From contig JBHGNT010000008.1 of NCBI GenBank assembly GCA_043228905.1, positions 11,842,001 through 11,906,000 of the forward strand: a stretch of DNA of 64,000 bases. The letters run 5' to 3'. Numbering within the stretch: the first letter of the stretch is position 1; every line of letters starts with the position of its first letter. The stretch is from Azolla caroliniana (lineage: Eukaryota; Plantae; Polypodiophyta). Under the pieces are notes generated by a model. It searched no databases. It saw only the letters and a program-made list of their open reading frames with translations, and was not told where the DNA came from. A program made the position numbers and the translations under genes. Shown piece by piece: positions 3,783 through 55,603 of the stretch.

Positions 3783-6700
3783 TGTCGTGAAGAATTTCGG
3801 CCTGGGGCGGAAACCGGGAAACATTGGCTACATCGGCGGGGTGCAGCGTGTGTACGCACCCATGTACATTTAGTGTGAATAACGAGCGCGCCTTTATGGC
3901 GCCGAAGAGTAGTCAAGTCGGGACAGACGATCCCATGTAAGTCAAGATCTATCCCACATTGTAACGCATCCCTCTCCTTGTTCTATAAAAGGAAGGGAAC
4001 GCCCTTTGTGAAAGGGTTGCCCATTTTGCATTAGAGGGTATACCATTAGGTTTAGAGTTAGGTTCTTCTTCTTCTCCTTCTGCGTGTTTTGCTTAGGGTT
4101 TGCTTTGGTTCGGCCTCCTGTGCAAGACCCCGCTCGGCACGACGAGCTAAGAGCTCCCCGACGGCGGCTTGACAGCAGACGACTACTGTAACCTACCTCA
4201 GTCCGGCTCGACGCCGGGAATGTATTCTTCCCTTTATATATATATATATATACATACGTTTGTCTGTGTATATTCGCGTCGTTGTTGGCGTCGGGTGCTT
4301 ACCCTCTCCTGCGTTTTCTGTACATAAGGCGTGAGTCGGGTTGGGTTGTGTGTGTGTGCGTGTGTGTGTGTGTGCGTGAGTCGGTGTTAAGCACACTCTC
4401 TCTCTCTCTCCCTTCGGTTGCTTCTGGTGTGTTTCTGGGATGCCCCAGAAACAGTGAAGCACGACTTCCTACGCTCAATCACTCTCTAGTCCAAGACCCC
4501 CGTGGTCCCGCCTTTCTCCACGCACGCACGTAACAACGCGACATATTTGGTGAACCCGACGTGAAAGGCAGCAAGGGAGGATGGAGTCGGAAGACGACGA
4601 CCTTGTGGAGATGGTGGCCGAAGTGGTGTTGGAGTCGGCACGAGTGGTGATGAGGCGAGAAGCAGCGCAACAAGCAGTTGAGCGAGTGGTCGAAAGAGTC
4701 GGTCGTTTCAACGGGGACAAAGTCCCATCTTACTTGGAAGCCTACAACACCGAAATGGAGGAGCGTGGCGTAGACGAGGCATTGAGGCTGGAGTTCTTCT
4801 GTCGGGTCGTGGCTGTCCGGATGCATGCGGAAATAAAGGAGCTCTATGAGGCTCATAGTTCGTGGGAGGCCTTCGAAGAGGCGCTCCTAAAGGCATACGG
4901 AGGACGGCGGAAGAGCCGGGGAGGACACGACTTTGACCAGTGGGTAGCATCGGCAAAGACCCACCGGGGCGCTGCCAAGGCATTTCGAGAGTTCGAGCGG
5001 CGGCTTGCTCGACTCCCGGAGCGGGAACAAGGTTTCGTGGGGGCGGACAAGGTCCTATTGTTCGTCAGGTCGATCGACCGAGCGGAACGGGAAGCCATCA
5101 GGATTGAGCTCGAAGACGATGATGGAGCGAATGGGCTTACGGAGGACCGGTCGAAGGTCGGAAGGGTGTGCCAACGGCTAGATGATGAGCAAGCCGAGAA
5201 GGCTAAGAGGAAGGTACGCGACGACGTGCCATCACAGCGGGAAGAGGCCGAACGGCAAAGAGAGCCGGCAAGGATCGGCGTTGGGACCAGGATTGTGGAG
5301 GCGTACACAGCTCTCGAGGTGATGCTCGAGGAAGAGGAAAGACGGAGGCCACAAGCCGAGACTGAGGAGACGGACTTGCCCCACGCGACGGCGGAAGATC
5401 GGTACCACGGTACCACGGGAGAGGGTGCAGAACGAAACGCCCTCTCGACTTGCGGAGATAGAATGGCCAAGGACGAGGCCGAGATACAGATTGCGAAACC
5501 GGAACGTTGGGACCAGCGATTTCAGGCCTGTCAGCCCGAGATCCCGGTCATTGGAGAAGCAAGCCCAGACGGGGCTTGCGCGATCGGTAAGAAGACGACC
5601 GCCGACCACGAAGAGTCGGTGGCTACTGACAAGGGCGTAAAACGGACGGGCGATTCTTTGTATCTTCCCACAGTTGCTCCCGAGACGATGGCAGTCGGGC
5701 CTGAGTGCCCACCTGAGTCCCAAGCGGAGGAAGGCGGTGGCGAAAGACCAAGAATCACCAGCGAGACGATACGGGTAAGGAGCGGACGATAGCCCACGGA
5801 CCCGATTCCGGAGAACTCGGCATTCGGGCCCGTATGCCCCTGTAAGACCGAGGAGATGGATGGCGGTACCGAGGAGTCCTGGCACGATGCCAGCGAAGAC
5901 GGATGGGAAACGGCCTGTGAGGAGGCCGAGGACGGACGTGGCACGAGGAGATCGGCATTCCGATGCGGATGGAGCAGAATCTGGTCGTGGATCGTTCGAT
6001 CGGCGCCGGATTCGGCATGAAAGTGCCTATACGGAAGGGGGTGCGGGACGAGCTGCCCTCTTTTACATGGGGAGAAAGACCGACCGGGCGAAGGTCGAGA
6101 GTTGGAAGGAAGGTGATCAAAGGTTCGGAACGAGTCTGGCAAGATCGGCATCAGAGCCGAAACTCCGGACATTGGAGAATCAAGCTCAGGCGGGGCTTGA
6201 TTGATCACAGAGCAGATGCTATCCACCGACACCACTAAAAGGGGCGGTGGCCCGGACAAGTTGCAAAAAGACGTTGCGAAATCGGTTACGCCACATCTTA
6301 TCCGGAGACTTCGGCAGTTCAGCCGACGTGGCAATGTGAGACCGAAGAGATGGAGGATGGAGGCAAGTACGCGAGAAGGAGAGAAGCGACGAGTTCGGGA
6401 GAAGTACAAGGGATGAAGAGGAGAACGAAGTCCGGTCCTACGAGATCCCCACACCAGTCCGGAGGCCCAACAGTTCGGCCAACATGGCAACGTGAGACCT
6501 AGGGAGAAGGCTGGTGGCAACAGGAGAACGGGACCCGGCAATACGGAGAAGGACGAACGGACCCGGACGAGAACCGGGCAGAGCGGACTCCCGGATGACC
6601 ATTCCGGGAGAGAGGAAAAGAGCCAGCCTACGAAGAGGCCGAGGAGACGGTACGTCGGTACCACGGGAGAGGGTGCGGAGTAAACCGCCCTCTTGGCATG

Positions 6701-9006
6701 CGGAAAAGGACGGCCCGGGACAGGGTCAGGAAGACAAATCGGAGGCCCAAGGAGGATCCTTCACACCGGTTCTAGAGACTTCGGCAGTCGGCAACGCGGT
6801 CGACGTAAGACCAGGATACTGACGGTGGCGGCGAGGTGACGAAGGCAAAAGGGCTACGGATGGGCGGTCTACAGAGATCCTCACACCGATCCGGCGGTCG
6901 GCCCAAGAGCCGGCGTGAGTCCTATAGGGAAGATCGGTGGCGGCAGGAGAATGTGATCGGACAACAGGAGGCGACGAACGGCAAGGAGGTATCAGGCCGG
7001 CGAGGCGGCCGCTAACCAAATCGAACCTTCCGGCAAGGTCAGTGGGCATAAGGAAGTCCGGTCCTACGGGATCCCCACACTTAACCAGAGACTCCGGCAG
7101 TTCGGCCAACGTGGCAACATGAGACCGAGAGAGAAGGTTGGTGGCGGCGGGAAACGGGACCCGACTACGCGGAAGACACGAGGAGAGTCGTGAAGGACTC
7201 CGACAAAAGACACCCAGATCTCGGCAAGCGATGAAACAAAGACAGGTCCTATGGGACCCTCACACCGATCCGGAGACTCCGGCAGTTCGGCCAACGTGGC
7301 AACGTGAGACCTAGGGAGAAGGACGGTGGCGGCAGGGAACGAGACCCAATGACACGAGGTAGCGGATCGAGAGCCAGTAAGACGGGGCGGACGAAGTGCG
7401 AAACCCTCACCGGCCGGTTACGGTTTTGGAAGTAGCTGGTAGGGGCAAACACAAGGAGGTGTCTCGGGCCGGAAAAGCACACCTGGGACGGAACAAGAGT
7501 CTCGCAAGTGGCCATCGCGGGCCGGATCGAAGCGTGACTGCGGGACGGTGTTCGGCGCGGGCGGAAGACGGCATAAGGGAGGTGTCGGGAACGAGGTGAC
7601 GGGTGCCTAGTGGACTGCACAGGGTCGGAGGCAGGGGATGGCAAGAGAGGCCGGAGGAGGATCCTCCACACTCGCTTCGTAGATCTCGGTAGCTCCGTCG
7701 AAGTAGCGAAGACTGACACGGCAAGCCCGGGGATGACAAGCTGGTGGGGGCGAGGGGACGACGGCAAGCGGAAGACTCAGGACCTGTTGCAGCAGCACGA
7801 AGACGGGAAGGGCGAAGCAGGCTACCACGGGGTGTTACTCGGGTGCAGAGGACACCAGTATGCAGGTGAGTGGCGATGCACGATCTGGCCGGGAAACGGG
7901 CCGAGAAGGCGTGCAATGAACCGGAGTACGGCACAGGTAGTGCCAAACAACGGACGAGTGAATGTGGGACACGAAGGTGCCGGAGCGGAAAGGCGAGCAC
8001 GGAGATGGGTTGCGCGGTTCGGAGGTGGCACGTAGAAGGTCGAGAAGGATCCTCCACACCATTCCGGAGACCGTGGCGGTTCGAGCCGACGCGACGATGT
8101 AAGACCATGGAGAAGGAAGGTGGCGGCGAGAGGACGAAGGAAATGCAAAACAACATGGGACGGCAATCAGGACTACGGGCATGCCTCAAGCGGAGGACAT
8201 CAGGCATACGACGGGAGCGGGGCGTTCATATGGCCGAACAAGGGCCAGCGGAAGTACGCGTACTACGGAGATCGCGGCAGAGGACCCATCGACGGGACGA
8301 ACGAGCTACGGGGAGGTAAGCGCGAAGGAAGAATCGAAGCCGATGGGTCAAACCGGCAACGAGCCGGGATGCGGATCACGGAAGACCGATTTCTCGCCGG
8401 CCGAAATCTCTCACCCTTCAACCAGATTTAGCACGTACCGGTGGATGTGCAATTAGGTGGGGGCGGATGTCGTGAAGAATTTCGGCCAGGGGCGGAAACC
8501 GGGAAACATTGGCTACATCGGCGGGGTGCAGCGTGTGTACGCACCCATGTACATTTAGTGTGAATAACGAGCGCGCCTTTATGGCGCCGAAGAGTAGTCA
8601 AGTCGGGACAGACGATCCCATGTAAGTCAAGATCTATCCCACATTGTAACGCATCCCTCTCCTTGTTCTATAAAAGGAAGGGAACACCCTTTGTGAAAGG
8701 GTTGCCCATTTTGCATTAGAGGGTATACCGTTAGGTTTAGAGTTAGGTTCTTCTTCTTCTCCTTCTGCGTGTTTTGCTTAGGGTTTGCTTTGGTTCGGCC
8801 TCCTGTGCAAGACCCCGCTCGGCGCGACGAGCTGAGAGCTCCCCGACGGCGGCTTGACAGCAGACGACTACTGTAACCTACCTCAGTCGGTGTGTTTCTG
8901 GGATGCCCCAGAAACAGTGAAGCACGACTTCCTACGCTCCATCACTCTCTAGTCCAAGACCCCCGTGGTCCCGCCTTTCTCCACGCACGCGCATAACAAC
9001 GCGACA
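3783..9006 (+). mobile_element. Non-autonomous gag-only LTR element (TR-GAG/LARD-like), family B-related
   Basis: LTRs 3783-4543 and 8468-9006 (TGTCGT...GCGACA), about 8 substitutions apart from a 222-bp indel. PBS TGGTGAACCCGACGTGA 4548-4564, PPT TAGGTGGGGGCGGA 8454-8467, flanks ACGT/ACAT. No RT, RH or INT motifs. Confidence 0.92.
4581..5792 (+). CDS. Gag-like protein with low-complexity charged C-terminus (403 aa)
   Basis: VERVGRFNGDKVPSYL...FDQWV...DKVLLFVRS aligns with the family B gag at 19011 (VERLMQRIGRFNEKDVSRYL...FEDWV...DKVIMFLRA). Confidence 0.85.
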   Translation: MESEDDDLVEMVAEVVLESARVVMRREAAQQAVERVVERVGRFNGDKVPSYLEAYNTEMEERGVDEALRLEFFCRVVAVRMHAEIKELYEAHSSWEAFEEALLKAYGGRRKSRGGHDFDQWVASAKTHRGAAKAFREFERRLARLPEREQGFVGADKVLLFVRSIDRAEREAIRIELEDDDGANGLTEDRSKVGRVCQRLDDEQAEKAKRKVRDDVPSQREEAERQREPARIGVGTRIVEAYTALEVMLEEEERRRPQAETEETDLPHATAEDRYHGTTGEGAERNALSTCGDRMAKDEAEIQIAKPERWDQRFQACQPEIPVIGEASPDGACAIGKKTTADHEESVATDKGVKRTGDSLYLPTVAPETMAVGPECPPESQAEEGGGERPRITSETIRVRSGR

Positions 9007-18305: not shown

Positions 18306-21300
18306 TGTCGTAGTGTGAATCACACACTACGTGAAATATGTAAAACACTATATCCAATTTAGAGTATGTATAATAAATAAAAATAAAATATTTATTACGT
18401 GCATAGGGCAAGATTCAAACCTTATACCTCCACGTAGACAAACCCCAGCCTTACCACTATACTAACATACTATGAATTTTAAAGTTATACTAAACTTTAT
18501 CCCATGTAAATATTCTAGATATCCATGGTACAAAAAGTTATTCATGCATACACACTCGAGTTAAAAGAAAAGATGGGATAGAAAGCTAATCATGCACATG
18601 TAGTGTGCATGAAAACTTAAGTAAAGCTAATCATGCACATGCAATGTGCATGAAAACTAAAGTTAGGAAAAGCATGATGCTTGCATGTGATAAACTTAGA
18701 CTCTTCCAACACTATATAAGGAAGAGAGAAAGATGTATAGTGGTTGTTGATTTTTTTTAGAATGATTGATTAATACAAAATATTCGTGGGATTCACGATT
18801 TTACCATCTAATTCTCTCTTACAATCTAATTACCCATTAATACATTATACTCGTGGGATTCACGAGTTTCATATCTTCTTCTTACAATCTCTTCCTAACT
18901 AACATTATCTCATATTCTTCTTTCTCCTAGTCCAAAACCACAACGGTTCCCACCCGACTCACGCAAACGATCCGGCGCCGAAAGGCACGACACAATTTGG
19001 TAAACCCGACGTGAAAACGGGTGGCAAGGAGATGGAGGCCAATAATATGATGATGATGTTCAAGAGGATGCTACAAAAACAACGCTTGATGTCGGAGATT
19101 GCAGCGGCAGTTGAGCGGCTCATGCAACGAATTGGGCGATTCAACGAGAAAGATGTGTCGCGGTATTTGCGAGATTACAAAGCAGAAATGCTACGGTGCC
19201 GAATTTCGGAAGGATTACAAGTGACATCCTTCAACCGGGTCGCAACTGATGGGCTTCCAGCAAGTATCCACGGGCTACGTCAACAAAATCCGACGTGGGA
19301 AGCGTTTGAAGAGCCGCTAAAGACCACGTTCGCTATCGAGGACTCCTCCAAGGCAACGCGGAGAGGATTCGAGGATTGGGTGGAAACACCGGACAAGGGG
19401 ATGAAGGTCCTCGATGTGTTTTCGGCATTCAAAAGTCGGCTCGGGAGGTTGTCTACGAGAGATCAAGTTATCCTCGCACCGGACAAAGTTATCATGTTCT
19501 TACGAGCCGTAGACGTCCGGGACCGGAAGGATCTTGGAGTGCTTCTAGAGGACACGACTACCGAGAGTGGCCTCACCGAAACATGGGAAAGCATGCGGGA
19601 TATCGTCGCACGATACACAAAGAGGGGGCAATGGCTTGCCAACGAAGAAAAGAGGGTTTCAGAACCGATTCCGAAACCGAGATCCGGATCAGAAGACCAT
19701 CAACCGCGGGCTTGGGAAGCTACAACCGAGAAGGGAATCGACGCAACTATGGTGGAGCAGTTGCGGAAGGAGATGGAGAATCTAAAAATCGCGATGGTGA
19801 AGAAGTCGGATGACCGTCCTACAAGTTCCAAGTATATGGACCGTCGGTGCATATGGTGCAATAGCACCGAACATGATCGGAGGGATTGCGACGAGCACAA
19901 GGAAGCGCTATGACGGGATCTTATCTACTACGAGGGAAATCAGATTCATTCGATGGACTCTCGGAAGCCACTCCAACCGAACTTCCGAAAAGGTGGCAGG
20001 AAGTAGGTCCTAGAGGAGGAAATAGCGGCAAAGAGCAATTACGTGACAACCGCGGGAATACGTGTCAGGGAGTCATCGGAAACAAAGGTGTCTTTTTGGT
20101 CGGAAGTGCTAGAAAACACCGAGAAAACTGACTCCAACAAGATCCGAAGCACCGTAGAATGTATCCGGGAAGCTACAAAATGGGAGTGCCCCGTAGATAA
20201 GAATAGCGTACATGCGCTATGTCAATTGCATGAAGTGTATATATACGATAAACGACGGCGCACGGATGATGCGGCCGGACCATCGAAGACATTGGAAAGC
20301 TGGAACTCCGGAGGGAAGGAAAAAGAAAAGACGATTCCGGCATTCAAGCTCGCCTCGGACATCGAACAACAAACAGACTTGAAGAAAGTGTTCGAGGAGA
20401 GAATCCTCGACAACCGGGTAGATTTTTCACTTCGGGAACTACTCGGAATAGCAAAAAAGGAGTTCCATGATCTTCTTGTGGATCTCGTGAAAAGAAAAAG
20501 ACAAACTACGGAGGAAAATGCGTCGAGGGTGAATGCAAATACCGTTCTAATGAACGACACCGAAGTGGAGGACGAGATTCCGAATTCCCACTATACAAAG
20601 CCACACTGGGCACGTGCAACTACTGAGACTCCAGTCCAAATCGGCAACATCAAAGAGCCCGTGCTAGCATTGATTGATCACAGATCGGAGATCAATGTGA
20701 TGTCTAAGGAGTTCTACCGTAAGGGGAAGTGGCCTATTAACACCAATCATGGATGGAAGATCCGGGCGGCAACTAAAGCAACGGAAGATCTATTTGCGGC
20801 TTGTCCGGATGTGACGGTGAAGATCGGGGATGTCGAGATCGACCAAAATTTCTTCGTACAAGATGAGGTCTCACACTCTGTGATCCTCAGGCAACCCTTT
20901 ATCACGGCTTCATGGATGGAGACGAAGGTGCTCAATAGCGGTGCGGCTTTTGCACAAATTCGGAGCCAAAACGGAGGGAAATCCATCCAATTCCTAACGG
21001 TGCCGGCAAATCATGAAAGGAAGAAGAGGGAGCTCTTGTCCCAAACAAGGATGGATTTTTAGAGCGGATTGTTGCTGAGTGGGGAAGTGATAGTCCGAGA
21101 AGCCCTGATACCCCACTTAAAAACTCTCGGAGCAAAACAAGTACGAATCGGTCCGGATGGGGCATCTATGTACACGACCGTAACCGGAGGAATGAAGAAA
21201 GAATACCGAAAAGTGGAGGATAAGTTGCGGTCGGCATCAACAATAAAAGAAGACGAAGAAATCGTGGGGGTAGTCAAAGAAGTGTTCTATGGGAACACGC

Positions 21301-23845
21301 TACAACAGGCGAAAATGGGGTCGGATGCGCTCCGCAAAGAAGAAGCAATGGTAAGTACGAAATACAAGACAGTGTGGAGAAGAAGGTGAAACCAGCCACA
21401 GGACCACTACCCGCCGATAGCGAACAAAAGAGGAAAGAAGTCTCGGGAGATCCGACACTTCGGAAGTCCGTGGATATCGAACATGCCTTCACGGATGAGA
21501 CCCGGAAGAAACTTCGGATCGGTGGAGGTGGGTTCCTATTAAAGAATGAAGAAGAACGATTCTGTGGGATGTTGGAAGAACATGGGAAAGCATTTGCATT
21601 CACATCGAAGGAGATAGGGTGCGTTGATTCGAAGATAGTGGAGCCGATGGTGATCTTCACGATTGACCATGTGCCGTGGAACTTGAAGCCGATTCCGGAG
21701 TTGCGGTCGCATATTCCGAAAATCAACAACTTGCCCAAGGAGAAGGTGGCGATGGGGATTCTAGAGCAATCAAACGCTCCATACTCAAATCGATAGTTTA
21801 CGGTTCCGAAGAAGAATGGGTCACTCCGATTTATCCAAGACTTGCAACCGGTGAACAAGGTCACGATCCGGAACTCCGGAATTGGTCCGATAGTGGACGA
21901 ATTTGCGGAAGCATTTTCCGGTCGTGCGATATACTCCATCAGAAACCTATACTCGGGTATGACCAATTCCAACTAGCCGTGGAGAGCTGAGACATTACTA
22001 CCATGCGGACACCGATAGGATAAGTCCGGATGTGTACGCTACCACAAGGCGCGACGAACTCGGTCGCACATATGATGAATGCAATGAACAAGGTGCTTCG
22101 AGACTGCATTCCGGAGATAACGATGCCGTTCCTAGATGACATTCCAATGAAAGGATGCGCGGTAGAAGAAAAAGATGAAACTATGGATGATCGGGGATGC
22201 CGAAAGTTCGTAGTCGACCATATTCGTGATTGCGAGAAAGTGCTTTGAAAATTAGAAGATGTGTACCTAACACTTTCCGGTGAGAAATCGGCATTCGAGC
22301 AAGAAGAAATATTGGTAGTCGGACATCTATGTGGGCCCTACGGCCTAAGACCGTCACCGACCAAGATCAATATAGTTCAAGCTATGAAAGAAATATGCGA
22401 GTCACAATCCGAAGTCCGAAGGTTTCTCGGAACATGTGCATTCTACCACAAATGGATTCCGCACTATGCACATATTGCGGACCCACTCTATCACTTGTTG
22501 TGGAAGGGTATGAAGTTCGAATGGAAACCGGAGCATACCAAAGCCGTGAAGAAGCTCAAGAAATCACTACGGATGGCAAAAGCACTAAAGAAGACGAACT
22601 ATGACCGACCGATCATAGTAACAGTTGACACAAGTCCAACCGGAATCGGATGGGTCATCAATCAAGCCGATCCGGATGGTTCGCGATATCCGATCCGATT
22701 CGGAGCAAAGGTTCTCAACGAAAGGCAACGCGGATATGCACAAGTCAAAAGAGAATTATGGGGAGTCGTGTCGGCAATCAAATCGTATCGAGATTATTTG
22801 TTAGAGTCGAAGTAGTGATTGAAACGGATTGTCTTCCGATACTCGGGATGATGCGGTGTTGCACGATACCGGATGTGGCTATGCTAAGATGGATTGCATA
22901 TGTTAAGTCGCTTAATCCGGAGGTACGACACATCTCCAGAAAAGACAACGCGGTAGCGGATATGCTATCAAGGGCGCGGTTCGGAGATGACATAACCGAA
23001 TCCGATAATGAAGAAGTTTCCGAAGACTAATTTGCTTCGGAGCACATATGCCGGGTGAACGTAATCCGAGAATTCCGGGAAGAAGAATACGAGGCAGAAA
23101 GCTTGTTGATCGGGAAAGTGCTACAAGAAATCGAGGAATCATCGGACAATAAAGAGAAGAGAGCCGAGATCCGAAGTAAGAAGCGGCAAGTCCGAAAGTT
23201 CTTCTTGAAAAATGGATTAATATGGAGGGAGCCGAAAAGACCGGATGGCATACCACTTCGGTAGTCGGGACAAAAGAGCAACGAAACCGGATAATGTTTG
23301 AGTTTCACGAATTCGATTGAGCTGGACATCGAGGAACATGGGCAAATTCTCACCGACAATCAACTTCAAGTGGATGGTCGATATTGTAGCCATGCCAACC
23401 GGGATCGGACAAAAGAAGTACTTGGTGTTAGCTCGGGAAGATCTCACAAACCAAGTAGAAGGTCGGGCGCTACGAAGGAAAACGTGTTCTACGGTATGTC
23501 AATTTCTTTTGGAGGAGGTGTTTTGCAAGTACGAGTGCGTAGGACAAGTGATTGCAGATCGGGGAGAACTCGACTCTGATAAAGCTAAGGAATTCTTCAC
23601 CAAACATGGAGTTCGGTTAACACTAAGGAATTCTTCACCAATCCGGAGGCCAACGGGAAAATCGAACGAGGACATAGTCCGATCGTCAAAGCACTTGCCA
23701 AAGCATGCGACGGAAGGGTGAAGGATTGGCCGCAAATGCTCCTGTATGCACTATGGGCGGATCGGACGACGCATAGCTCCGTAACCGGTTACATGCCGGC
23801 AGAACTCATGACCGGACAAGCACCGGTAATCCCTACGGAAACCAT
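18306..23845 (+). mobile_element. Ty3/gypsy family B, decayed: 5' LTR 18306-18992, Trp-type PBS, gag-PR-RT-RH-partial INT; own 3' LTR absent
   Basis: LTR TGTCGT...ACGACA; PBS TGGTAAACCCGACGTGA 18998-19014. Motifs: knuckle CIWCNSTEHDRRDC, LALIDHRSEINVM, PFLDD, WMVDIV...ADRGEL. Many stops and frameshifts. Confidence 0.93.
19011..19913 (+). CDS. Family B Gag (ends at a premature stop)
   Basis: 300-aa ORF with a CCHC knuckle; coding continues in 20043-21062 (protease region). Confidence 0.8.
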   Translation: MKTGGKEMEANNMMMMFKRMLQKQRLMSEIAAAVERLMQRIGRFNEKDVSRYLRDYKAEMLRCRISEGLQVTSFNRVATDGLPASIHGLRQQNPTWEAFEEPLKTTFAIEDSSKATRRGFEDWVETPDKGMKVLDVFSAFKSRLGRLSTRDQVILAPDKVIMFLRAVDVRDRKDLGVLLEDTTTESGLTETWESMRDIVARYTKRGQWLANEEKRVSEPIPKPRSGSEDHQPRAWEATTEKGIDATMVEQLRKEMENLKIAMVKKSDDRPTSSKYMDRRCIWCNSTEHDRRDCDEHKEAL

Positions 23846-24647: not shown

Positions 24648-25121
24648 AACAGGCCAGGTCCGACAGCATTCAACCAAGTGGGAATGCCAACTCTCGATCC
24701 GGCATTAACCAAAATACACATTTAAGAGTTCTCCACGATCCGGCGGGTGGCCAAAGATGGCGGAATGAGTGAGGGATATCCGGCAAGCCGCGGAATACAT
24801 GGTGCATGATTGGGAGGAATCACATGACTGGATACGGTCATTGGAAGAGCGGTTACAGGCGGTTGGCTGAGTAGAAACTCGCTGAAAGAGCCGAGATGAA
24901 GGATGCTCAGGAATAGGGTGCACCAGCCGGACGAAAGGAAGAGGAGACCACACGGAGAATCGGCAAAACAGAGGGACAAGGAGAGAAGGAGGTAGCGGCG
25001 ACAGAAGAAACCACCTCCGTGGCAGACAAAGATCCACTAACCACGACAATAGAGGAACGAGCAGAAAGAGCTCAAGAGGAGAAGGTGGGTAGAGGACAAC
25101 AGACATTTCAACCGCAGAAGT

Positions 25122-28100
25122 TGTAAGAATTTCACTCCGATTCGAAATCAGAAATTGAACTTAGACGCAAACAGGAAATAAGAAAGAACACACAATTTAC
25201 GTGGAAAACCTTGATTCAGGGAAAAACCACGGAACAGAGATTTCACTATGAGAAATGACAGAATACAATCACAGAACAATGAAACCTGATTTGGTATGAG
25301 CATGTACTGAAACCACGATTTCAGTCAAGCTCTTCAAACTCTAGCACGCAGGTGATTATTCCTTCCGAAGCTTCCGAGGCTTCTCTGTCTTTTTCTCTTT
25401 GCTTCACACTTCTTTTCTTCTTACTTAGCTTCTGAGTACGTATACTCTTACACAGCCACTACTGTGCAGAAAACTAGTCGTTCTCAGATTTACCACGCAC
25501 ACACTACTCGTTTTTTTCTCTCATATATATATATATCTCACACCCTCACATACGCTATGTAGGTTTTCCCCTTTTCTCACTATTTCACTCTTAGTGAGTT
25601 ATCCCACATACAAGCGCACTACCAGGCCTGTCAGCATATATATACTAAGTCGTTTTCTTCTTTGAATGTAGAAGACATATGTATATGTATATGTGTGTCT
25701 ATTCGACTGAGTACGAATTTGACTCTCTCACCGAATTCGATCAGCTAACCCCGATTCGGTTCTTTGCAACTGACTATTCTTTTACTTTCCGAATTTCGAC
25801 CAAATTCGGTAATTCGGTTTTTCGGCCGATTTCGGTGATTCGACTCTAATCGGCTTTTCGACCGATTTCGACCAGTCGACACTCAAGTCGACTTTTCGGC
25901 CGACTCCCCCGCAAGGAGGGACGCCTTTACACAACAAACTCCCCTTCACTCATGTAGGGGGAGAACCAACCAAGCCAATCTTATTCCGGCATGCAACAAG
26001 TTTTTCCATAGGCAAAATTTTTGTGAGCATGTCTGAGCCATTTTCTTCAGTGGGGATCTTAGATAGAACAAACTCATTTTCTTCCACTCTTTCTCTTAAC
26101 CAATGGTACCTTCTTTGAATGTGCTTTGTACGAGAGTGGTAGGTAGCATTTTTAGCCAGATGGATAGCACTTTGATTGTCACAATGAAGTAAGTACTTGT
26201 CTTGCTTCAATCCTAGTTCATTCAAGAACTCTCTCATCCAAATCAGTTCTTTTCCGGCTTCCACTGCAGCCATATACTCAGCCTCGGTGGTAGACAAAGC
26301 CACAACCTTTTGCAATCTTGATTGCCATGACACAGCTCCCCCTGAATACGTCATCACATACCCTGATGTGGATCGGCTAGAATCTACATCACCCGACATG
26401 TCAGAATCTGTAAAACCTTCTAGCACAGGTTTCCCGGAGCCATATCTAAGACATACATTCGAAGTTCCTTTGAGGTATCTAAGAATCCATTTCACAGCTT
26501 CCCAATGCTCCCTTCCAGGATTTCCCATGTATCGACTAACTGTCCCGACAGCAAATGCAATGTCCGGCCTTGTGCAAACCATAGCATACATAAGGCTACC
26601 AACCGCAGAGGCATACGGCACTCTTCTCATCTCTGCCTTATCTTTCTCATATTTCGGACATTGTCCTGAATTTAACTTACAGCCCATTGGCAATGGAGAT
26701 CCGACCGATTTTGCATCGCACATATTAAACCTTTGCAAAACTTTTGTCACATATTTCTCTTGTGACAGCCATAGCAAGTTTTCAGTCCTGTCCCGGACTA
26801 TATGCATTCCCAAAATCTGTTTTGCCGGTCCTAAGTCTTTCATGGCAAATGATTTGCTCAATGATTTCTTCAAGCTTGCAATCTTTTTGACATCCTGTCC
26901 AACAACCAACATATCATCCACATACAACAACAGAATAAGAAAGTCACCCTCATTATACCTTTTCACAAATACACAATGATCAGCTTGTGTTTTGTGGAAT
27001 CCATGTTCCAACATGAAGGACTCAAATTTCTTATACCATTGTCGTGGAGCTTGCTTTAAACCATACAAGCTTTTCTTCAACCTACACACGAGATTTTCTT
27101 TTCCTTTTACCTCAAAGCCCTCCGGTTGTTGCATATATATTTCCTCTTCTAGCTCACCATGCAAGAAGGCTGTTTTAACATCTAGTTGTTCGATTTCAAG
27201 ATTCATACTAGCGGCCATACTCAAGACAGTCCGAATAGAGGTCATTTTTACAACTGGGGCAAAAATCTCATCAAAGTCAACACCCTTTTTCTGTTGGAAA
27301 CCCTTTACGACGATACGGGCCTTATACCTGGGTGTACTACCATCTTCACCAGTCTTTAATTTGTAGACCCATTTGTTTCTAAGTTCCTTCTTACCATCAG
27401 GCAACTCCATCAGCTCATAAGTTAGGTTCTCATGCAAGGAATCCATTTCTTCTTGCATGGCATTATACCATTTCTCCTTGTGTACATCAGTCATGGCCTC
27501 TTCATAGCATTCTGGTTCCCCTTCATCAGTCAAGAGAACATATTGACTGGCTGGATATCTAGAAGAGACCTTCCTTTGTCTTCGTGGATATCTTCTCCCT
27601 TCAATAATTGGCTGATGGCCGTTTTCTTCCAGCAACTCATCTTCCGACTCCAATTCGTGTGTATCAGTAAGATGTTGGGTGTCGACCGACTCAGATTGTT
27701 GTTGGGTGTCGACCGACTCAAATTCAATTTCATTAGCCGATTGTTGTGTGTGAGTCGGATCGACTAGTATTGACTCCATAGCAGTGATCGATTTGGGAGA
27801 CGACTCTGGTCTTTGTTGCTCCCAGTCCTCGATTGTCTTGTCTTCCATGAATATGACATCTCGACTTCTTATCACTTTCTTGTCAAGGAGATCCCACATT
27901 CTGTACCCGAACTCATCTTCTGAGTACCCCAAGAATATACAAGGTTTGGACTTGCTATCCAGTTTTGACCTCTGATCTTTAGCAACATGTACATAGGCCA
28001 AACATCCAAACACCTTTAAGTGCTGATAAGACACATTTCTCCTTGTCCACACTCTTTGTGGTACATCCCCCTTCAAAGGCACTGATGGAGACCTGTTTAT

Positions 28101-30802
28101 GAGATAAACAGCAGTCAACATTGCTTTAGCCCAATATGATTTTGGCAATTTTGCATGTGCCAACATGCTTCTTACCCTTTCCATTATGGTCCGATTCATT
28201 CTTTCTGCTAGACCATTTAGCTCAGGTGTCTTCGGCACCGTATACTCAAGTTTGATGCCTTGAGTCTTGCAATACATCTCAAATTGGCCTCTATATTCGC
28301 CACCGTTATCTGTCCGGACAGCCTTCAGCTTTTGTCCGGATTCTCTTTCTGCCCTGGCATGAAACTCTTTAAAGACCGACAACACTTGGTCTTTAGACAC
28401 CAGCACATAAGCCCACACTTTCCTACTGAAGTCATCAATAAATGTGACAAAGTATTGTCCTCCACGATGAGATGGGGCATCAACATAACATACATCGGTG
28501 TGAACCAACTCTAAGGCATGCTCTCTCCTCATTGGAGGCCTAGAGTGAAACGTTGTTCTATTTTGCTTTCCAGCCAGGCAATCCACACACTTTTCCAAAT
28601 GCACTCCTTTCACCTCTGGTAGGAAATCCTTTTCCGCAAGGATATGCATTCCCCTTTCACTCATATGTCCGAGCCTTTTATGCCACAACTCACCATCTGA
28701 GCCAGCCACTACATTTGCTTCCTCTCGACACAACTTCCCATGCATTACATATAGTGTGTTCTGTTTTTGGGCTCGAGCCACGATCAGGCTCCCTTTACAG
28801 AACTTCCATGAACCATTTTGGAAGCCACCGTTGTACCCTTCATCGTCTAGCCGTCCAGCCGATATCAAGTTAAACCTGACATCCGGAACATGACGTACAT
28901 CCTTCAACATTAACCTGCAGCCTGTAGATGTTAGCAAGCACACAGTTCCTATGCCCACAATCTTGCATTCCCCGTCATTTCCCATCTTTACATGACCATA
29001 GTCACCTGCTGTGTAGGATGAGAAACATTCTCTTTTGGGAGTTAGGTGAAATGATGCACCGGAATCCACTACCCATGAGCTCTCAGCACTTGCAAGATTC
29101 ACACTAGCTTGTTCACATATGAACAACATCTCTTCCTCACTAGTTACGATGGCTGAGGTATTTTTATCATCGGAGATTTTTCTAGGTTCGATCTCATCAG
29201 CCATGCCTTTGTACTTCCTAAGGTGTCGACAATTCTTTTGGAAGTGACCAGGCTTCCCACAATAAAAACATGTAGGTCTTCCTCTAGATTTCGACCTAAA
29301 CCTATCCCCATTTTCTAGACTTCTATGTTCTCTTCTACCTCTACTAAATTCTTGGGTCACATTTGCCTCCGATTGAGATAAAGCACTTTTATCCTTTCTT
29401 CTTGTCTCTTCATTTAGAATAGTCGTTTTTACTACTTGTAAGGATAAGTTGTCTTCTTTACATGAAGTGCTGAGTGTTACTATTAGGTTTTCCCAACTAT
29501 CGGGTAGAGTACATAATAATAGTGTGGCCTGCATACAATCATCTAATGGGAACTTTGATGATGCTAACTGATTCACTAGTCCCATAAACGCACTAATGTG
29601 CTCTACTATACTCTCCCCGTCTACATACTTCAGTCTCACTATCTTCCTCATCAAGAAGGTCTTATTTAAGGCATTTTTCCTTTCATAGAGAGCGGAAAGC
29701 TTATGCCATAGCTCGAAGGCATTTGTGTCACTCGCTACATGTTGTAGGACACTAATGTCTACACATTGTCTTATGGTCGCCACTGCCTTCCTATTTAGGA
29801 TTCTCCACTCCGAATCTATTACCCCCTTTGGTATATCCTTGTTTTCTATAGGCTCATACAAGTCTTTTACTATTAGGAGATCTTCCATTTTGATCTTCCA
29901 ATCTGAATAGTTTTGTGAGTTCAAGACAAACATCCCAGGAAAGCCACTCACGCTCCCTTCCATCTAGAACCTATGCTCTGATACCAGTTTGTAAGAATTT
30001 CACTCCGATTCGAAATCAGAAATTGAACTTAGACGCAAACAGGAAATAAGAAAGAACACACAATTTACATGGAAAACCTTGATTCAGGGAAAACCCATGG
30101 AACAGAGATTTCACTATGAGAAATGACAGAATACAATCACAGAACAATGAAACCTGATTTGGTATGATCATGTACTGAAACCACGATTTCAGTCAAGCTC
30201 TTCAAACTCTAGCACGCAGGTGATTATTCCTTCCGAAGCTTCCGAGGCTTCTCTGTCTTTTTCTCTTTGCTTCACACTTCTTTTCTTCTTACTTAGCTTC
30301 TGAGTACGTATACTCTTACACAGCCACTACTGTGCAGAAAACTAGTCGTTCTCAGATTTACCACGCACACACTACTCGTTTTTTTCTCTCATATATATAT
30401 ATCTCACACCCTCACATACGCTATGTAGGTTTTCCCCTTTTCTCACTATTTCACTCTTAGTGAGTTATCCCACATACAGGCGCACTACCAGGCCTGTCAG
30501 CATATATATACTAAGTCGTTTTCTTCTTTGAATGTAGAAGACAGATGTATATGTATATGTGTGTCTATTCGACTGAGTACGAATTTGACTCTCTCACTGA
30601 ATTCGATCAACTAACCCCGATTCGGTTCTTCGCAACTGACTATTCTTTTACTTTCCGAATTTCGACCAAATTCGGTAATTCGGTTTTTCGGCCGATTTCA
30701 GTGATTCGACTCTAATCGGCTTTTCGACCGATTTCGACCAGTCGACACTCAAGTCGACTTTTCGGCCGACTCCCCCACAAGGAGGGACGCCTTTACACAA
30801 CA
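25122..30802 (-). mobile_element. Intact Ty1/copia element (Tnt1/Tork-like)
   Basis: LTRs 25122-25936 and 29990-30802 (about 11 substitutions and one TA indel), TSD GAAGT, PBS TGGTATCAGAGC 29975-29986, PPT AGTGAAGGGGAG ~25939-25950. Confidence 0.97.
25950..29963 (-). CDS. Copia Gag-Pol polyprotein (1337 aa, uninterrupted)
   Basis: CFYCGKPGHFQKNC; WVVDSGAS; WHKRLGH, HTDVC, RTDNGGEY; QLDVKTAFLHG, YGLKQAPRQW, YVDD; TDSD, CDNQSA. Confidence 0.97.
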   Translation of the reverse strand: MEGSVSGFPGMFVLNSQNYSDWKIKMEDLLIVKDLYEPIENKDIPKGVIDSEWRILNRKAVATIRQCVDISVLQHVASDTNAFELWHKLSALYERKNALNKTFLMRKIVRLKYVDGESIVEHISAFMGLVNQLASSKFPLDDCMQATLLLCTLPDSWENLIVTLSTSCKEDNLSLQVVKTTILNEETRRKDKSALSQSEANVTQEFSRGRREHRSLENGDRFRSKSRGRPTCFYCGKPGHFQKNCRHLRKYKGMADEIEPRKISDDKNTSAIVTSEEEMLFICEQASVNLASAESSWVVDSGASFHLTPKRECFSSYTAGDYGHVKMGNDGECKIVGIGTVCLLTSTGCRLMLKDVRHVPDVRFNLISAGRLDDEGYNGGFQNGSWKFCKGSLIVARAQKQNTLYVMHGKLCREEANVVAGSDGELWHKRLGHMSERGMHILAEKDFLPEVKGVHLEKCVDCLAGKQNRTTFHSRPPMRREHALELVHTDVCYVDAPSHRGGQYFVTFIDDFSRKVWAYVLVSKDQVLSVFKEFHARAERESGQKLKAVRTDNGGEYRGQFEMYCKTQGIKLEYTVPKTPELNGLAERMNRTIMERVRSMLAHAKLPKSYWAKAMLTAVYLINRSPSVPLKGDVPQRVWTRRNVSYQHLKVFGCLAYVHVAKDQRSKLDSKSKPCIFLGYSEDEFGYRMWDLLDKKVIRSRDVIFMEDKTIEDWEQQRPESSPKSITAMESILVDPTHTQQSANEIEFESVDTQQQSESVDTQHLTDTHELESEDELLEENGHQPIIEGRRYPRRQRKVSSRYPASQYVLLTDEGEPECYEEAMTDVHKEKWYNAMQEEMDSLHENLTYELMELPDGKKELRNKWVYKLKTGEDGSTPRYKARIVVKGFQQKKGVDFDEIFAPVVKMTSIRTVLSMAASMNLEIEQLDVKTAFLHGELEEEIYMQQPEGFEVKGKENLVCRLKKSLYGLKQAPRQWYKKFESFMLEHGFHKTQADHCVFVKRYNEGDFLILLLYVDDMLVVGQDVKKIASLKKSLSKSFAMKDLGPAKQILGMHIVRDRTENLLWLSQEKYVTKVLQRFNMCDAKSVGSPLPMGCKLNSGQCPKYEKDKAEMRRVPYASAVGSLMYAMVCTRPDIAFAVGTVSRYMGNPGREHWEAVKWILRYLKGTSNVCLRYGSGKPVLEGFTDSDMSGDVDSSRSTSGYVMTYSGGAVSWQSRLQKVVALSTTEAEYMAAVEAGKELIWMREFLNELGLKQDKYLLHCDNQSAIHLAKNATYHSRTKHIQRRYHWLRERVEENEFVLSKIPTEENGSDMLTKILPMEKLVACRNKIGLVGSPPT

Positions 30803-33290: not shown

Positions 33291-33475
33291 ATGTAGCTCA
33301 GTTGGTAAGGTTGCCCAATGGAGACCAGGTGGTCATGGGTTCAACCCCTACATTCCACAATGGCATCTAGTGAATTAAGAGATATATAAGAAGTATATAA
33401 AAGAGAGGTGAAGAAGTTGGGTTTCGAACCCACAACACAGTGCTTGTAGTGCTAATAACTTACCACTAGGGTAAG
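33291..33475. other. Two convergent tRNA-like (A box/B box) sequences between (GA)n tracts; SINE-like
   Basis: Plus strand: TAGCTCAGTTGG...GGTTCAACCCC (33291-33357). Minus strand: TACCCTAGTGG...GGTTCGAAACC (33418-33475). Anticodon arms do not fold canonically. Confidence 0.6.
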
Positions 33476-34904
33476 GTAATTACGATAAAAGAGAGAGAGA
33501 GAGAGAGAGAGAGATCATTGATACCATTTTAGAGTGTTGCTCTAGGACACCCATATGTCATGTTTAGAGGATGCATGCATTCTTATTTGGCACTCGCACA
33601 CTAGTATGAGAGCAAAGACATATTACGTGATTGAGAGAGAGGTAGTTAGGTTTGGTTTTTCTCAGCATTGGAAACTTTTGGAATTTGCCAAACTAAGAGG
33701 TTCAAAAATGTGTTTTGGACCTCTTCACTAACCATATTCAAACAATGAATTAACCCCTTCACCAACCATCCTCTTAGGTGTGGTCTTCTAAGTTATGTGT
33801 AGTTTTCATTCCATCATCAATTGAGAGAGAGAGGGAGGGAGAGATAGATTTTATTATCAATTTCAAAGGTCAACTATGACCTATGAGACGAAAAATATTA
33901 CATTTCACATTATACATGTGAAAGTGAGTAGTGACTCGATTTGCAAGAACTTTACAAATAAATGTTGCAAAGAATCTTCCATTTGTCTCTAAAGAATCTC
34001 ACAAGGTATCATATCAAAAGCTTTCTTGAAGTCTTTGAAACAATAATAATAATGCAAAGACTTATATTTCATGCAACTTCCTTTATTAATACTTGAAGGG
34101 TGACAAAGTGATTAATGGTGTTATGGTGTTTTTGAAAGCTAACTTCTCTATAATCTTTGTTACCATTTTGTTCAACCCATGCATTTATCTCTGATTTTAC
34201 CATTAGCGAGCAAACCATGATGGTTCAATAGTTGTTTACAATATTTACATCTCCACCTTTATGTAAAGTTTGATCCAATTTGTAGTTTATTGTAGGGCAT
34301 GCTATGTTGCAATGCATAGCTAAACATATCCCTTATCAATGCATGTACTCCCTTTCTTGACCACATAAGCATTTTAACCTTTATACATTGAAGCCCTCTT
34401 GCCTTTCGAGAGGCCAATATTCTTAAGTCTTATGTGCTCATCTTCAATCGTAAAGAAGGGAGACATATGTGAAAGAGAACCATAACGCATCATCTTTCTC
34501 GAAATTCATAGCTCTTATAAATTCTTTAAAATGCATAGACAAATCCAAAAGTGTTAGGTCATCATAACCTTCAACAGAGTTTCCATTTAGATTCCCCCCA
34601 AATTGAGTACATGCATGTGCTTTTTCTTGTGTTTGGAGAAATTGTTAGTAACTCCCATATATTCTTCTCTTCTTTGAATAAGTCTTTTGTACTCAAGCAA
34701 ATGTTTTTGAGAATTTTCCTTATCCTTAACAACATCCAAAATCATAAGGCACTTTTGAGCTTCATGACATTCTTTTTTTTTTATACATAAAACTACACCA
34801 TAGTTTCCATTACCAATGCAATAAGCAAATACAAACCTATAATAGTACATTTTAGTGGTGGGTAAGATATTCCCCCTTATGTCAAAATTGAAACGAACCT
34901 CCAC

Positions 34905-52767: not shown

Positions 52768-55603
52768 CTTGTCTACGTCCTCCTTAACCTTGCTTTTTTC
52801 TTCATGTCTCTCGGCCTTAGTTTCAAAATCATGAATTTTCAATTCTGTATCATACCTAACATTGTTAGCTTCGATTCGCATGTTTGAACACGAAAATCCG
52901 ATATCACACGAGCCAGGTATGAACATTTTCATTTAGTCACGCTCTCTTGTCTACGTCCTCCTCAACCTTGCTTTTTTTTTCATGTCTTTCGCCCTCAGTT
53001 TCAAAATCATGAATTTTCAATTCTATATCATAACTAACATCGTTAGCTTCGATTCACATGTTTTAACACAAAAATGTGATATCACACGAGCCAGGTATGA
53101 ACATTTCCATTTACTTACGCTCTCTTGTCTACGTCCTCCTCAACCTTGCTTTTTTCTTCAGGTCTCTCGCCCTCAGTTTCAAAATCATGATTTTTCAATT
53201 CTATATCCTAACATCGTTAGATTCGATTCGCATGTTTGAACACGAAAATCCGATATCACATGAGCCAGGTATGAACATTTTCATTTAGTCACGCTCTCTT
53301 GTCTACGTCCTCCTCAACCTTGCTTTTTTCTTCATGTCTCTCGCCCTCAGTTTCAAAATCATGAATTTTCAATTCTATATCATAACTAACATCGTTCGCT
53401 TCGATTCACATGTTTGAACACGAAAATCCGATATCACACGAGCCAGGTATGAACATTTTCATTTAGTCACGCTCTCTTGTCTACGTCCTCCTCAACCTTG
53501 CTTTTTTCTTCATGTCTTTCGCCCTCAGTTTCAAAATCATGAATTTTCAATTCTATATCATAACTAACATCGTTAGCTTCGATTCACATGTTTGAACACA
53601 AAAATGTGATATCACACGAGCGTGCTCCTCAACCTTGGTTTTTTTCTTTATGTCTCCTGCCCTATGTTTCAAAATCATGAATTTTCAATTCTATATCATA
53701 CCTAACATCGTTAGCTTCGAATCGCATGTTTGAACACAAAAATCCGATATCACACGAGCCAGGTATCACACGAGCCAGGTACAAGAGAACGTGAGTAAAT
53801 GAAAATGTTCATACCTGGCTCGTGTGATATCGGATTTTTGTGTTCAAACATGCGAATCGAAGTTAACAATGTTAGGTATGATATAGAGTTAAAAAATCAT
53901 GATTTCGAAACTCAAGGCGAGAGACATGAAGAAAAGAGCAAAGTTGAGGAGGACGTTGTCGTAGTGTATTTCGTACACTACGTGAAAAACTTATAAAGTA
54001 CCGATTTAATAAATATGAATAAATAGTAGAAAATATTAAAATATATATAACATGCATAGGGCAAGATTCGAACCTTGCACCTCCATGTTAATAATGTAAT
54101 GTCTTACCATTACACTAGCATTTCATTAGTGTTCAAAAATAGATGTTCCACATAGAAACCTTAGTTCACCTAGGATAAACTTTAGTTAAAAGAAAACGCA
54201 TGCTAAAAGAAAAATCTACGCATGCACATCTAGCGTGCATGAACGCTATAGTTGATAAAAAACGCACAAGTTAGAAAAAGCATGATCACTTTAGATAAAG
54301 CATATAGTCTATCTATAGGAAAAACATGGTGTCTATAGTTAGAAAAAGAAGAAGCATGGACTCCCTCATCACTACATAAGGATGGGGAGCACAATGTAAT
54401 AGGTGTGTGAAATATTTGGAAATTGGATATATTTCCGAAAACACCAACCGATTAATATAATCGTGGGATTCACGAAAATAATATAATCTATACTTGTGGG
54501 ATTCACAAGTTTCTTATATCTTTCTTTCAATCTAAATACATATTCTTATCTAAATATTGATTAATCGAATACAATACACTCGTGGGATTCACGAAATTTC
54601 TATCTCTCTTTCTAATAATCTATTCATTACTAGCCTCATCTCATATTCTTCTTTCTCCTAGTCCAAAACCTCAGTGGTTCCCACCCGACTCACGCAACGA
54701 TTCGGCGCCGAAAGGCACGACAACGTAGACAAGAGAGCGTGAGTAAATGAAAATGTTCATAGTTGGCTCGTGTGATATCATATTTTTGTGTTCAAACACT
54801 CGAATAGAAGCTAATGACGTTAGCTATGATATAGAATTGAAAACTCATGATTTTGAAACTGAGGGCGACAAACATGAAGAAAAAAGCAAGGTTGAGGAGG
54901 ACGTAGACAAGAGAGCGTAAGTAAATGAAAATGTTCGTAGTTGGCTCGCGTTATATCAGATTTTTGTGTTTAGACATGCGAATTGAAGATAACGATGTTA
55001 GGTGTGATATAGAATTGAAAAATCATGATTTTGAAACTCAGGGCGAGAGACATGAAGAGAAAAGCAAGGTTGAGGAGGACGTAGACAAGTGAGCGTAAGT
55101 AAATGAAAATGTTCATACCTCGCTCGTGTGATATCACATTTTTGTGTTCAAACATGTGAATTGAAGATAACGATGTTAGGTATGATTTAGAATTAAAAAA
55201 TCATGATTTTGAAACTGAGGGCAAGAGACATGAAGAGAAAAGCAAAGTTGAGGAGGACATAGACAAGAGAGCGTGAGTAAATGAAAATGTTCATACCTGG
55301 CTCGTGTGATATCACATTTTTGTGTTAAAACATGTGAATCGAAGCTAATGATGTTACTTATGATATAGAATTGAAAAATCATGATTTTGAAACTGAGGGT
55401 GAAAGACATGAAAAAAAAAGCAAGGTTGAGGAGGACGTAGACAAGAGAGCGTGACTAAATGAAAATGTTCATACCTGGCTCATGTGATATCGGATTTTCT
55501 TGTTCAAACATGCGAATCGAATCTAACGATGTTAGGTATGATACAGAATTGAAAAATCATGATTTTGAAACTAAGGCCGAGAGACATGAAGAAAAAAGCA
55601 AGG
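52768..55603. repeat. 178-bp satellite array as an inverted (fold-back) pair of ~1-kb arms; polarity switch at ~53780
   Basis: GTCTACGTCCTCC recurs at 52771, 52949, 53127, 53301 and 53479. From 53781 the monomers are reverse-complemented. Confidence 0.95.
53957..54722 (+). mobile_element. Family B solo LTR with 4-bp TSD ACGT
   Basis: TGTCGTAG...GGCACGACA is homologous to 18306-18992. ACGT at 53953-53956 and 54723-54726; the empty site GGACGTAGAC is visible in the other monomers. Confidence 0.95.

What the first reader, a model, noticed from the sequence alone, without database searches (positions are those of the whole stretch)
18401..18468. Gypsy LTR carries an antisense tRNA-like Pol III cassette, also present in the solo LTR (54054-54122)
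Seen: about 100 bp inside both family B LTRs, the minus strand reads TAGTATAGTGGTAAG...GGAGGT..AAGGTTTGAATCTTGCCCTATGC and TAGTGTAATGGTAAG...GGAGGT..AAGGTTCGAATCTTGCCCTATGC, followed by T-rich sequence. The A box, B box and spacing are kept while the anticodon-arm region has diverged almost completely. Known: A/B boxes form the Pol III type 2 promoter, and Cassandra TRIMs carry a 5S-derived Pol III promoter in their LTRs. Inference: a family-level tRNA-derived module that may be selected as a TFIIIC site or insulator, or make an outward antisense RNA.
Basis: partly seen in the sequence, partly recalled or inferred. Interest (0 to 1): 0.75.

Follow-up and report, generated by a model that had tools for sequence, protein, structure and literature searches.

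The report
Backward tRNA-like promoter in retrotransposon LTR
A family of jumping genes of a moss-type lineage carries, backwards at a fixed spot in its terminal repeats, a conserved remnant of a tRNA gene with promoter boxes and a stop signal; it likely recruits the cell's tRNA-transcription machinery, possibly to shield the element's own promoter, but no binding or RNA has been shown.

Summary
Both window copies (18385-18471, 54038-54124, minus strand) sit about 96-98 bp inside LTRs of a Phygy-lineage Ty3/gypsy family (4-bp NCGN target duplication, Trp primer site, gag-pol). The module is a family trait, not a chance SINE insertion. In 40 of 45 metagenome loci it lies just behind an LTR start, it occurs in three LTR subfamilies and in runs of five organism labels, and its 33-bp B-box block is the most conserved part of U3. 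tRNA-invariant A-box positions, an 18-bp spacer length and a T4 run 13 bp downstream are kept, while the spacer sequence drifts. It is not a tRNA. Any transcript would be about 90 nt and end inside the LTR, so it cannot make genomic RNA as Cassandra does and Helenus is proposed to. Best reading (0.45): a captured Pol III unit kept for TFIIIC/Pol III occupancy beside the Pol II promoter. Against this: the key B-box C is lost more often than the tolerated G, the A box does not beat synonymous divergence, and there are no RNA data. The scan earlier noted similar antisense tRNA-like units in other genomes' retrotransposons. New variant of a known kind.

The parts
18306..18992 (+). 5' LTR of a Phygy-lineage Ty3/gypsy element (TG...CA, 687 bp)
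18400..18471 (-). tRNA-like module (tRNA positions ~1-73), antisense in U3; this copy has T in place of the conserved B-box C
18451..18464 (-). A box
18400..18434 (-). highly conserved block containing the B box (18411-18421); predicted 13-bp hairpin without compensatory changes
18385..18388 (-). T4 run, candidate Pol III terminator, 13 bp after the module
18712..18720 (+). TATA-like box of the element's presumed Pol II promoter, ~310 bp from the module and divergent from it
   Evidence: function inferred
18998..19015 (+). primer-binding site, tRNA-Trp type
   Evidence: Phygy PBS is Trp in 81%
18903..23840 (+). broken gag-pol (DUF4100, RNase H-like), cut off before any 3' LTR
53957..54722 (+). 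solo LTR of a sister subfamily (766 bp) with 4-bp ACGT target-site duplication, inside a 178-bp tandem array
54053..54124 (-). tRNA-like module in the solo LTR, with intact B box (A box 54104-54117, B box 54064-54074)
54038..54041 (-). T4 run, candidate Pol III terminator

Best explanation
The LTR of this Phygy-lineage Gypsy family carries a fixed, antisense, tRNA-derived A/B-box module with a T4 run, which likely binds TFIIIC and Pol III and likely helps the element by its occupancy, as a predicted barrier or open-chromatin anchor on the outer side of the element's Pol II promoter. Shown: position, orientation, family-wide presence in 5', 3' and solo LTRs, the conservation pattern, and that it is no tRNA. 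Inferred: capture from a tRNA gene or SINE head into U3 of an ancestor, then copying into both LTRs of all progeny through the 3' U3; purifying selection acting on replicating copies. Untested: TFIIIC/TFIIIB/Pol III binding, a ~85-95 nt oligo-U-ended non-tRNA transcript, and any barrier effect. Inserted copies would lose the B box by methyl-CpG decay.
For: (1) Fixed position: an LTR start lies 71-113 bp upstream in 38 of 45 loci and 205/256 bp in 2; 2 contigs are too short, and 3 have no start but keep the LTR's AT-rich flank. (2) Reads laid without my search pattern: depth peaks on 18385-18438 in runs of 4 organism labels, with neighbouring U3 bins far lower in organisms C and D. Among 2,591 contigs of 4 runs, only the B-box CpG and one subfamily site in 54054-54085 vary by 8% or more. 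(3) Outside the search pattern, five tRNA-invariant positions average 0.87 weighted pair identity against 0.62 for the other 34 positions (permutation p 0.003, 34 related copies); A-box free positions 0.53, spacer 0.59. (4) Spacer length is 18 in 26 of 26 copies while the flanks are full of indels. (5) T4 lies at +13 in 30 of 33 copies; TTTT occurs inside the body in 1 of 33 (about 7 expected from shuffled spacers), against 30 of 33 in the upstream window. (6) The intact B-box C occurs in all three LTR subfamilies and needs 7 changes on the tree; by summed contig depth about 50-60% keep the CG. (7) Yeast tDNAs and TFIIIC sites block Pol II read-through (PMC4228148 passages) and act as heterochromatin barriers (reference titles in the same paper).
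Against: (1) The B-box C>T change (26-37% of depth) is 1.8-3.7 times as common as the neighbouring G>A change (10-16%) that a B box tolerates (tolerance recalled). 31 of 44 pattern-selected copies have T, while five other LTR CpGs stay intact in 71-91%. T dominates one subfamily, so some lineages may replicate without a canonical B box. (2) A-box identity between subfamilies (10-12 of 14) is no better than 4-fold gag sites (80 of 106 identical), though far above its own flanks. (3) The plant CAA start motif is present in only 3 of 33 copies, and the longest T run is only 4 in 24 of 33. (4) Conservation extends ~10 bp beyond the B box on each side, which TFIIIC alone does not explain. (5) A bound complex in the 3' LTR would face the element's own Pol II transcript head-on (inference). 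(6) Methylated, clustered plant tDNAs are repressed (PMC7544208 passages). (7) Copies are related, so counts overstate independence, and the C/T labels are only weakly clustered on the tree (7 changes against a shuffled mean of 9).
Confidence: 0.45

Rival explanations
1. The conserved block is a retroelement cis-signal, a hairpin in the genomic RNA's 3' U3 or in minus-strand cDNA with a palindromic TTCGAA at its tip (dimerisation, strand transfer or packaging), and the tRNA ancestry is incidental.
For: RNAalifold predicts one 13-pair hairpin covering exactly the conserved block, with 98.5% of cells paired against 26-50% when slid. This explains the conservation beyond the B box and the weaker A box.
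Against: There are 0 compensatory changes, the 3' arm was fixed by my search pattern, and the one-sided changes fall on CG/CHG sites where methyl-C decay gives the same letters (context read). The element-sense strand folds less stably (mean -6.1 against -9.2 kcal/mol; antisense more stable in 24 of 33). It does not explain A-box-specific conservation, the fixed T4, or T4 avoidance in the body.
Confidence: 0.2
2. The unit is transcribed by Pol III and the ~90-nt antisense RNA is the functional product, for example tuning silencing or processing of the element's RNA by pairing with its 3' U3.
For: Complete unit with a terminator, T4 avoidance in the body, a hairpin more stable on the Pol III strand, and an excess of C>T on the would-be non-template strand, which fits transcription-associated mutagenesis (bioRxiv 10.1101/229906 passages).
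Against: The 5' half of the RNA drifts freely in sequence and keeps no shared fold. The strand bias rests on one site.
Confidence: 0.15
3. Neutral relic: an old SINE/tRNA fragment that rides along in U3 and only looks conserved through ascertainment, recombination among LTRs and faster drift of the AT-rich flanks.
For: Frequent loss of the B-box C; A box at about the synonymous rate; the one copy found without the pattern (L011:767-854) has a decayed B-box block; free A/B-box fragments occur elsewhere in the window (33293-33355); another Trp-primed LTR family in the window (3783-4543) lacks the module.
Against: Pattern-free read data show near-invariance of the block across runs of five organism labels. 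Subfamilies whose upstream flank no longer aligns share 29-30 of 32 bases of the block. Conservation falls on tRNA-invariant positions.
Confidence: 0.12
4. The block is kept as a binding site for a Pol II transcription factor on the element's sense strand (RY- or ACGT-type motif at its end).
For: It lies in U3, 220-340 bp upstream of the TATA-like box in most copies, and CATGCA-type palindromes recur in the LTR (RY label recalled).
Against: The RY-like hexamer at the module end is broken in 11 of 40 copies, including the whole third subfamily and the 18401 copy. It does not explain the A box, spacing or T4.
Confidence: 0.08

Closest known systems
Helenus / TRIMp3 (Kojima 2024, PMC10886601; main text parts 1-5 of 6 and one supplement passage read)
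   Same: [quoted passage not shown]
   Different: Helenus are short non-coding TRIMs (311-1263 bp). In the three Helenus LTRs with a visible tRNA-like part in the supplement passage, it is in sense and is proposed to make the genomic RNA. Here it is antisense, self-terminating, and in the U3 of a gag-pol element with a TATA-like box. The paper says that 'not a few' Repbase LTRs contain tRNA-like parts but studied only TRIMs.
Cassandra TRIM (as described in PMC10886601; the original paper not read)
   Same: Pol III promoter from a small-RNA gene fixed in plant LTRs.
   Different: 5S-derived, non-autonomous, and transcribes the element from 5' LTR to 3' LTR.
Phygy lineage of non-chromovirus Ty3/gypsy (Neumann et al. 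2019, PMC6317226; passages and one supplement row read)
   Same: 4-bp NCGN target duplication, tRNA-Trp primer site, polyprotein filling the internal part.
   Different: No tRNA-like LTR module appears in the passages seen. A second Trp-primed LTR family in the window lacks it, so it is a family-level gain.
Yeast tDNA/ETC (TFIIIC) barriers and Pol II roadblocks (PMC4228148, passages read)
   Same: A/B-box sites whose effect comes from factor occupancy, including a tRNA pseudogene (ETC9).
   Different: Host loci with demonstrated binding; here the site is mobile and binding is untested.

Membership tests
Phygy Ty3/gypsy | 4-bp TSD with NCGN preference | tested here: met
   Solo LTR has ACGT on both sides; 21 of 37 LTR starts follow NCGN, 8 more follow NTGN/NCAN, and 8 others include 3' LTRs behind a purine tract; definition
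Phygy Ty3/gypsy | tRNA-Trp primer-binding site | tested here: met
   PBS at 18998 is complementary to the 3' part of a CCA-anticodon tRNA-like sequence in L012; the same PBS type occurs in L024, L027, L032, L036. The Trp assignment also rests on recall.
Phygy Ty3/gypsy | RT/RH/INT phylogeny with REXdb Phygy references | not testable with these tools
   No REXdb here. Named protein relatives are from Physcomitrium, Riccia and Adiantum at 35-61% identity.
Helenus / TRIMp3 | tRNA-derived sequence with boxes A and B in the LTRs | tested here: met
   Rfam tRNA score is below threshold
Helenus / TRIMp3 | short non-coding TRIM (about 0.3-1.3 kb) | tested here: not met
   gag-pol follows the LTR; the LTRs alone are 0.45-0.97 kb. 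A 1.4-kb non-coding derivative does exist in L027.
Helenus / TRIMp3 | Pol III promoter in sense, able to make the genomic RNA | tested here: not met
   Module is antisense with T4 at +13; Helenus LTRs seen are sense
tRNA gene | cloverleaf with acceptor, D, anticodon and T stems | tested here: not met
   ARAGORN finds 0 in the window and none at the module in 45 loci; canonical acceptor pairs fail at 4 of 7 positions and anticodon-stem pairs at 4 of 5 in most copies
free tRNA-SINE | own TSD, body and tail, found outside LTRs | tested here: not met
   All 45 loci carry the LTR-type AT-rich flank after the module; no tail or own TSD was seen. The search pattern included the module's 3' end, so a free SINE with another body could be missed.
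Pol III type 2 transcription unit | A box, B box at tRNA spacing, downstream T run | tested here: met
Pol III type 2 transcription unit | plant upstream CAA motif | tested here: not met
   CAA in 3 of 33; an ACACT motif instead in 21 of 33. Some real plant tDNAs also lack CAA.
Pol III type 2 transcription unit | TFIIIC/Pol III binding and a transcript | not testable with these tools
   No ChIP data and no raw small-RNA reads were on offer

The most novel reading that the evidence does not exclude
A self-insulating retrotransposon: an autonomous plant LTR element that has domesticated a tRNA-type Pol III gene, facing away from its own promoter, as a portable chromatin barrier that goes with every new copy and every solo LTR, thereby scattering many TFIIIC/Pol III sites through the host genome.
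Probability: 0.3. Interest if true: 0.75.

Novelty: new variant of a known kind. Interest (0 to 1): 0.5.

Why it matters
Known Pol III promoters in LTRs (Cassandra, Helenus, Ajax) belong to tiny non-coding elements, where they are shown or proposed to transcribe the element, and Kojima argues that autonomous partners must rely on Pol II. A conserved, backward, self-terminating Pol III unit in a coding family cannot serve that purpose, so it points to a second use of tRNA promoters by transposons. The contrast between C- and T-bearing copies gives a built-in control for testing whether TFIIIC sites act as barriers in plants.

Tried and rejected
No whole genome is held, so no genome-wide pattern-free LTR alignment was possible. 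Rfam over the whole window gave no tRNA hit. Searches for deeper relatives with DNA gave nothing: viral contigs by gag, pol and module pattern, genome contigs by LTR-end/PBS pattern and pol; the module's presence in Physcomitrium, Riccia or fern Phygy-like LTRs is therefore unknown. No RNA holder was listed, and the one 'RNA?' run laid was judged probably DNA: no evidence either way. The cloverleaf was rejected. D-stem covariation (an A-U to G-C swap between two subfamilies) was seen but amounts to one event with other pairs broken, so it is not counted. Self-supplied primer was rejected: the module is not complementary to the PBS by inspection. Depth over the A box cannot be used, because the 18401 copy's divergent spacer limits mapping. 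Targeting of the module's start site by other elements (lead from e1-10420559): only one insertion was noticed, in L011, with no systematic count. The integrase Pfam check failed on stop codons and was not repeated. Paper searches that found no description of this module: (0 papers), judged from listings; subscription journals and Repbase entries were not searchable, and bioRxiv supplements are closed.

Full report
Observation. The first lies in an LTR at 18306-18992 that is followed by a primer-binding site (18998-19015) and broken gag-pol frames on the + strand. The element stops in the integrase region near 23840, with no 3' LTR in the window. The second lies in a solo LTR (53957-54722) with a 4-bp ACGT duplication. 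The module is thus antisense to the element, about 96-98 bp from the LTR start and about 310 bp upstream of a TATA-like box. Between the two copies the A box is 12 of 14 identical, the B-box/3' arm 20 of 21 and the spacer 7 of 18. A tailored A+B regex finds only these 2 sites, and none in 200 shuffles. It is not a tRNA: ARAGORN finds none; Rfam gives 13.4 bits on the solo copy and nothing on the other; acceptor and anticodon stems fail in most copies.

The element. Named protein relatives come from Physcomitrium, Riccia and Adiantum, and unnamed ones include long intact pol frames. Neumann et al. 2019 (PMC6317226; passages and one supplement row) define Phygy by a 4-bp NCGN duplication and mostly Trp primer sites; both were met here. 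The host is probably a seedless plant; it was not identified and no genome is held.

Family-level or chance? A 21-nt pattern covering the B box and 3' arm found 45 metagenome loci (L002/L043 are duplicates, and L024/L027 share one LTR). An LTR start lies upstream in 40 of 45; 2 contigs are too short, and 3 lack a start but keep the LTR flank. The module occurs in 5' LTRs followed by PBS and gag, in 3' LTRs preceded by integrase sequence, and in three LTR subfamilies; the third has a ~450-bp LTR and a gag 78% identical in protein. No copy shows its own tail or duplication, though a free SINE with a different body would escape the pattern. A profile search of the window and all 45 loci gave 48 hits: the 47 known copies plus one decayed copy at the same LTR position. 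A second Trp-primed LTR family in the window has no module, so it is not lineage-wide.

Conservation. Because the loci were selected on the B-box pattern, I used contigs laid by overall likeness for that part. Depth peaks on 18385-18438 in runs of organisms A-D, comparable to the LTR's 3' end, while neighbouring U3 bins fall to near zero in C and D. On the solo LTR, 2,591 contigs of 4 runs (organisms A, C, E) show variation of 8% or more only at the B-box CpG and one subfamily site within 54054-54085; summed depth is not copy number. Outside the pattern, in 34 of 47 copies (dropped: 2 duplicates, 4 out of register or rearranged, 7 too short), weighted pair identity is 0.84 for the A-box core, 0.53 for its free positions, 0.59 for the spacer, 0.95 for the GGAGGT block and 0.90 for the T4. 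Five tRNA-invariant positions score 0.87 against 0.62 (permutation p 0.003; position numbering is mine and recalled; copies are related). The spacer is 18 bp in 26 of 26 aligned copies, while the flanks vary in length. T4 sits at +13 in 30 of 33 copies, and TTTT occurs in the body of 1 of 33 against about 7 expected from spacer shuffles.

Results against a working promoter. The B-box C is lost often: 31 of 44 pattern-selected copies, against 71-91% retention at five other LTR CpGs. By depth it is lost in 26-37%, against 10-16% for the partner G>A change, which a B box tolerates (tolerance recalled). The site is palindromic, so context does not explain the bias. Either T-bearing lineages replicate, or the Pol III non-template strand mutates faster, as described for tRNA genes (bioRxiv 10.1101/229906, passages). 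C survives in all three subfamilies and needs 7 changes on a 36-row tree (shuffled mean 9), which fits repeated decay from C-bearing parents but does not prove it. Between subfamilies the A box (10-12 of 14) does no better than 4-fold gag sites (80 of 106), although the B-box block does (29-30 of 32); LTR and gag may not share one history. The plant CAA motif (PMC7544208, passages) is found in 3 of 33 copies, and the T run is only 4 long in 24 of 33. The conserved block is wider than a B box and folds as a 13-pair hairpin, with no compensatory change; its one-sided changes lie at CG/CHG sites. That extra conservation is unexplained.

Mechanism. An antisense unit that ends about 80 bp inside the LTR cannot make genomic RNA and does not match the PBS. 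Because the 5' half keeps promoter positions and length but not sequence or fold, I favour selection for factor binding over selection for the RNA (0.45). TFIIIC/TFIIIB/Pol III would sit at the outer edge of the LTR, divergent from the Pol II promoter, blocking read-through or silencing from the flank, as yeast tDNAs and ETC sites do (PMC4228148, passages). All of this step is inferred. Rivals: a retroelement hairpin signal (0.2), a functional small antisense RNA (0.15), a neutral relic (0.12), a Pol II factor site (0.08).

Comparison. The closest known kind is Helenus/TRIMp3 (PMC10886601; parts 1-5 of 6 and one supplement passage). It shares the tRNA-derived boxes in LTRs, but it is a non-coding TRIM with the sequence in sense in the entries seen. 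Membership fails on both points; the resemblance in origin stands. That paper notes that 'not a few' Repbase LTRs contain tRNA-like parts, so the general phenomenon is not new. A sugar beet preprint (10.64898/2026.03.01.708851, one passage) mentions only Cassandra and Helenus/Ajax. Searches listed no paper on such a module in Phygy or other autonomous plant LTRs (judged from listings). Earlier notes of this scan describe antisense tRNA-like units in fungal and protist Gypsy elements and one LTR-borne promoter; they are unchecked and not counted as support, and none matched this sequence.

Verdict. Real, family-wide and conserved; function plausible but unshown. New variant of a known kind, interest 0.5.

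Noticed in passing
L012, directly after the LTR end (about 2120-2200): The 3' two-thirds of a tRNA-Trp-like gene (CCA anticodon loop, T arm, T run) follows the LTR in sense: either an insertion into a primer-tRNA gene or a captured primer. ARAGORN and Rfam did not call it.
   Followed up: partly
L011:620-760 (second LTR): A ~125-bp insert, which looks like large-subunit rRNA by recall (Rfam did not call it), sits about 15-20 bp upstream of the module's start in a second, tandem LTR whose B-box block has decayed.
   Followed up: partly
L027, L024: Non-coding relatives with the short (~450 bp) module-bearing LTR; L027 has a 1.4-kb internal part without an ORF over 67 aa on the element strand, in a tandem LTR-internal-LTR arrangement. 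L036 has the same LTR type with an open gag.
   Followed up: partly
L017, L029: LTR variants in which ~110-160 bp of GA-rich sequence replaces part of U3 between the LTR start and the module; the module is kept.
   Followed up: no
window 33293-33355 (+) and about 33410-33480 (-): Free-standing A/B-box tRNA-like fragments next to GA microsatellites, facing each other; not matched by the module profile or by Rfam tRNA. Possible SINE remnants.
   Followed up: partly
window 3783-9006: A second Trp-primed LTR element (LTR start after ACGT, PBS at 4548) with no Pfam hit in two of its ORFs and no tRNA-like module.
   Followed up: partly
window 52677-55605: 178-bp tandem array in two opposite orientations, with the solo LTR inserted near the switch point.
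   Followed up: no
window 25121-30802 (-): Copia element with 98% identical 816-bp LTRs and an unbroken 1337-aa polyprotein frame.
   Followed up: no
L005:282-357 and 783-856: A tRNA-Asn gene and a decayed tRNA lie within ~1.1 kb upstream of a truncated element's 3' LTR.
   Followed up: no
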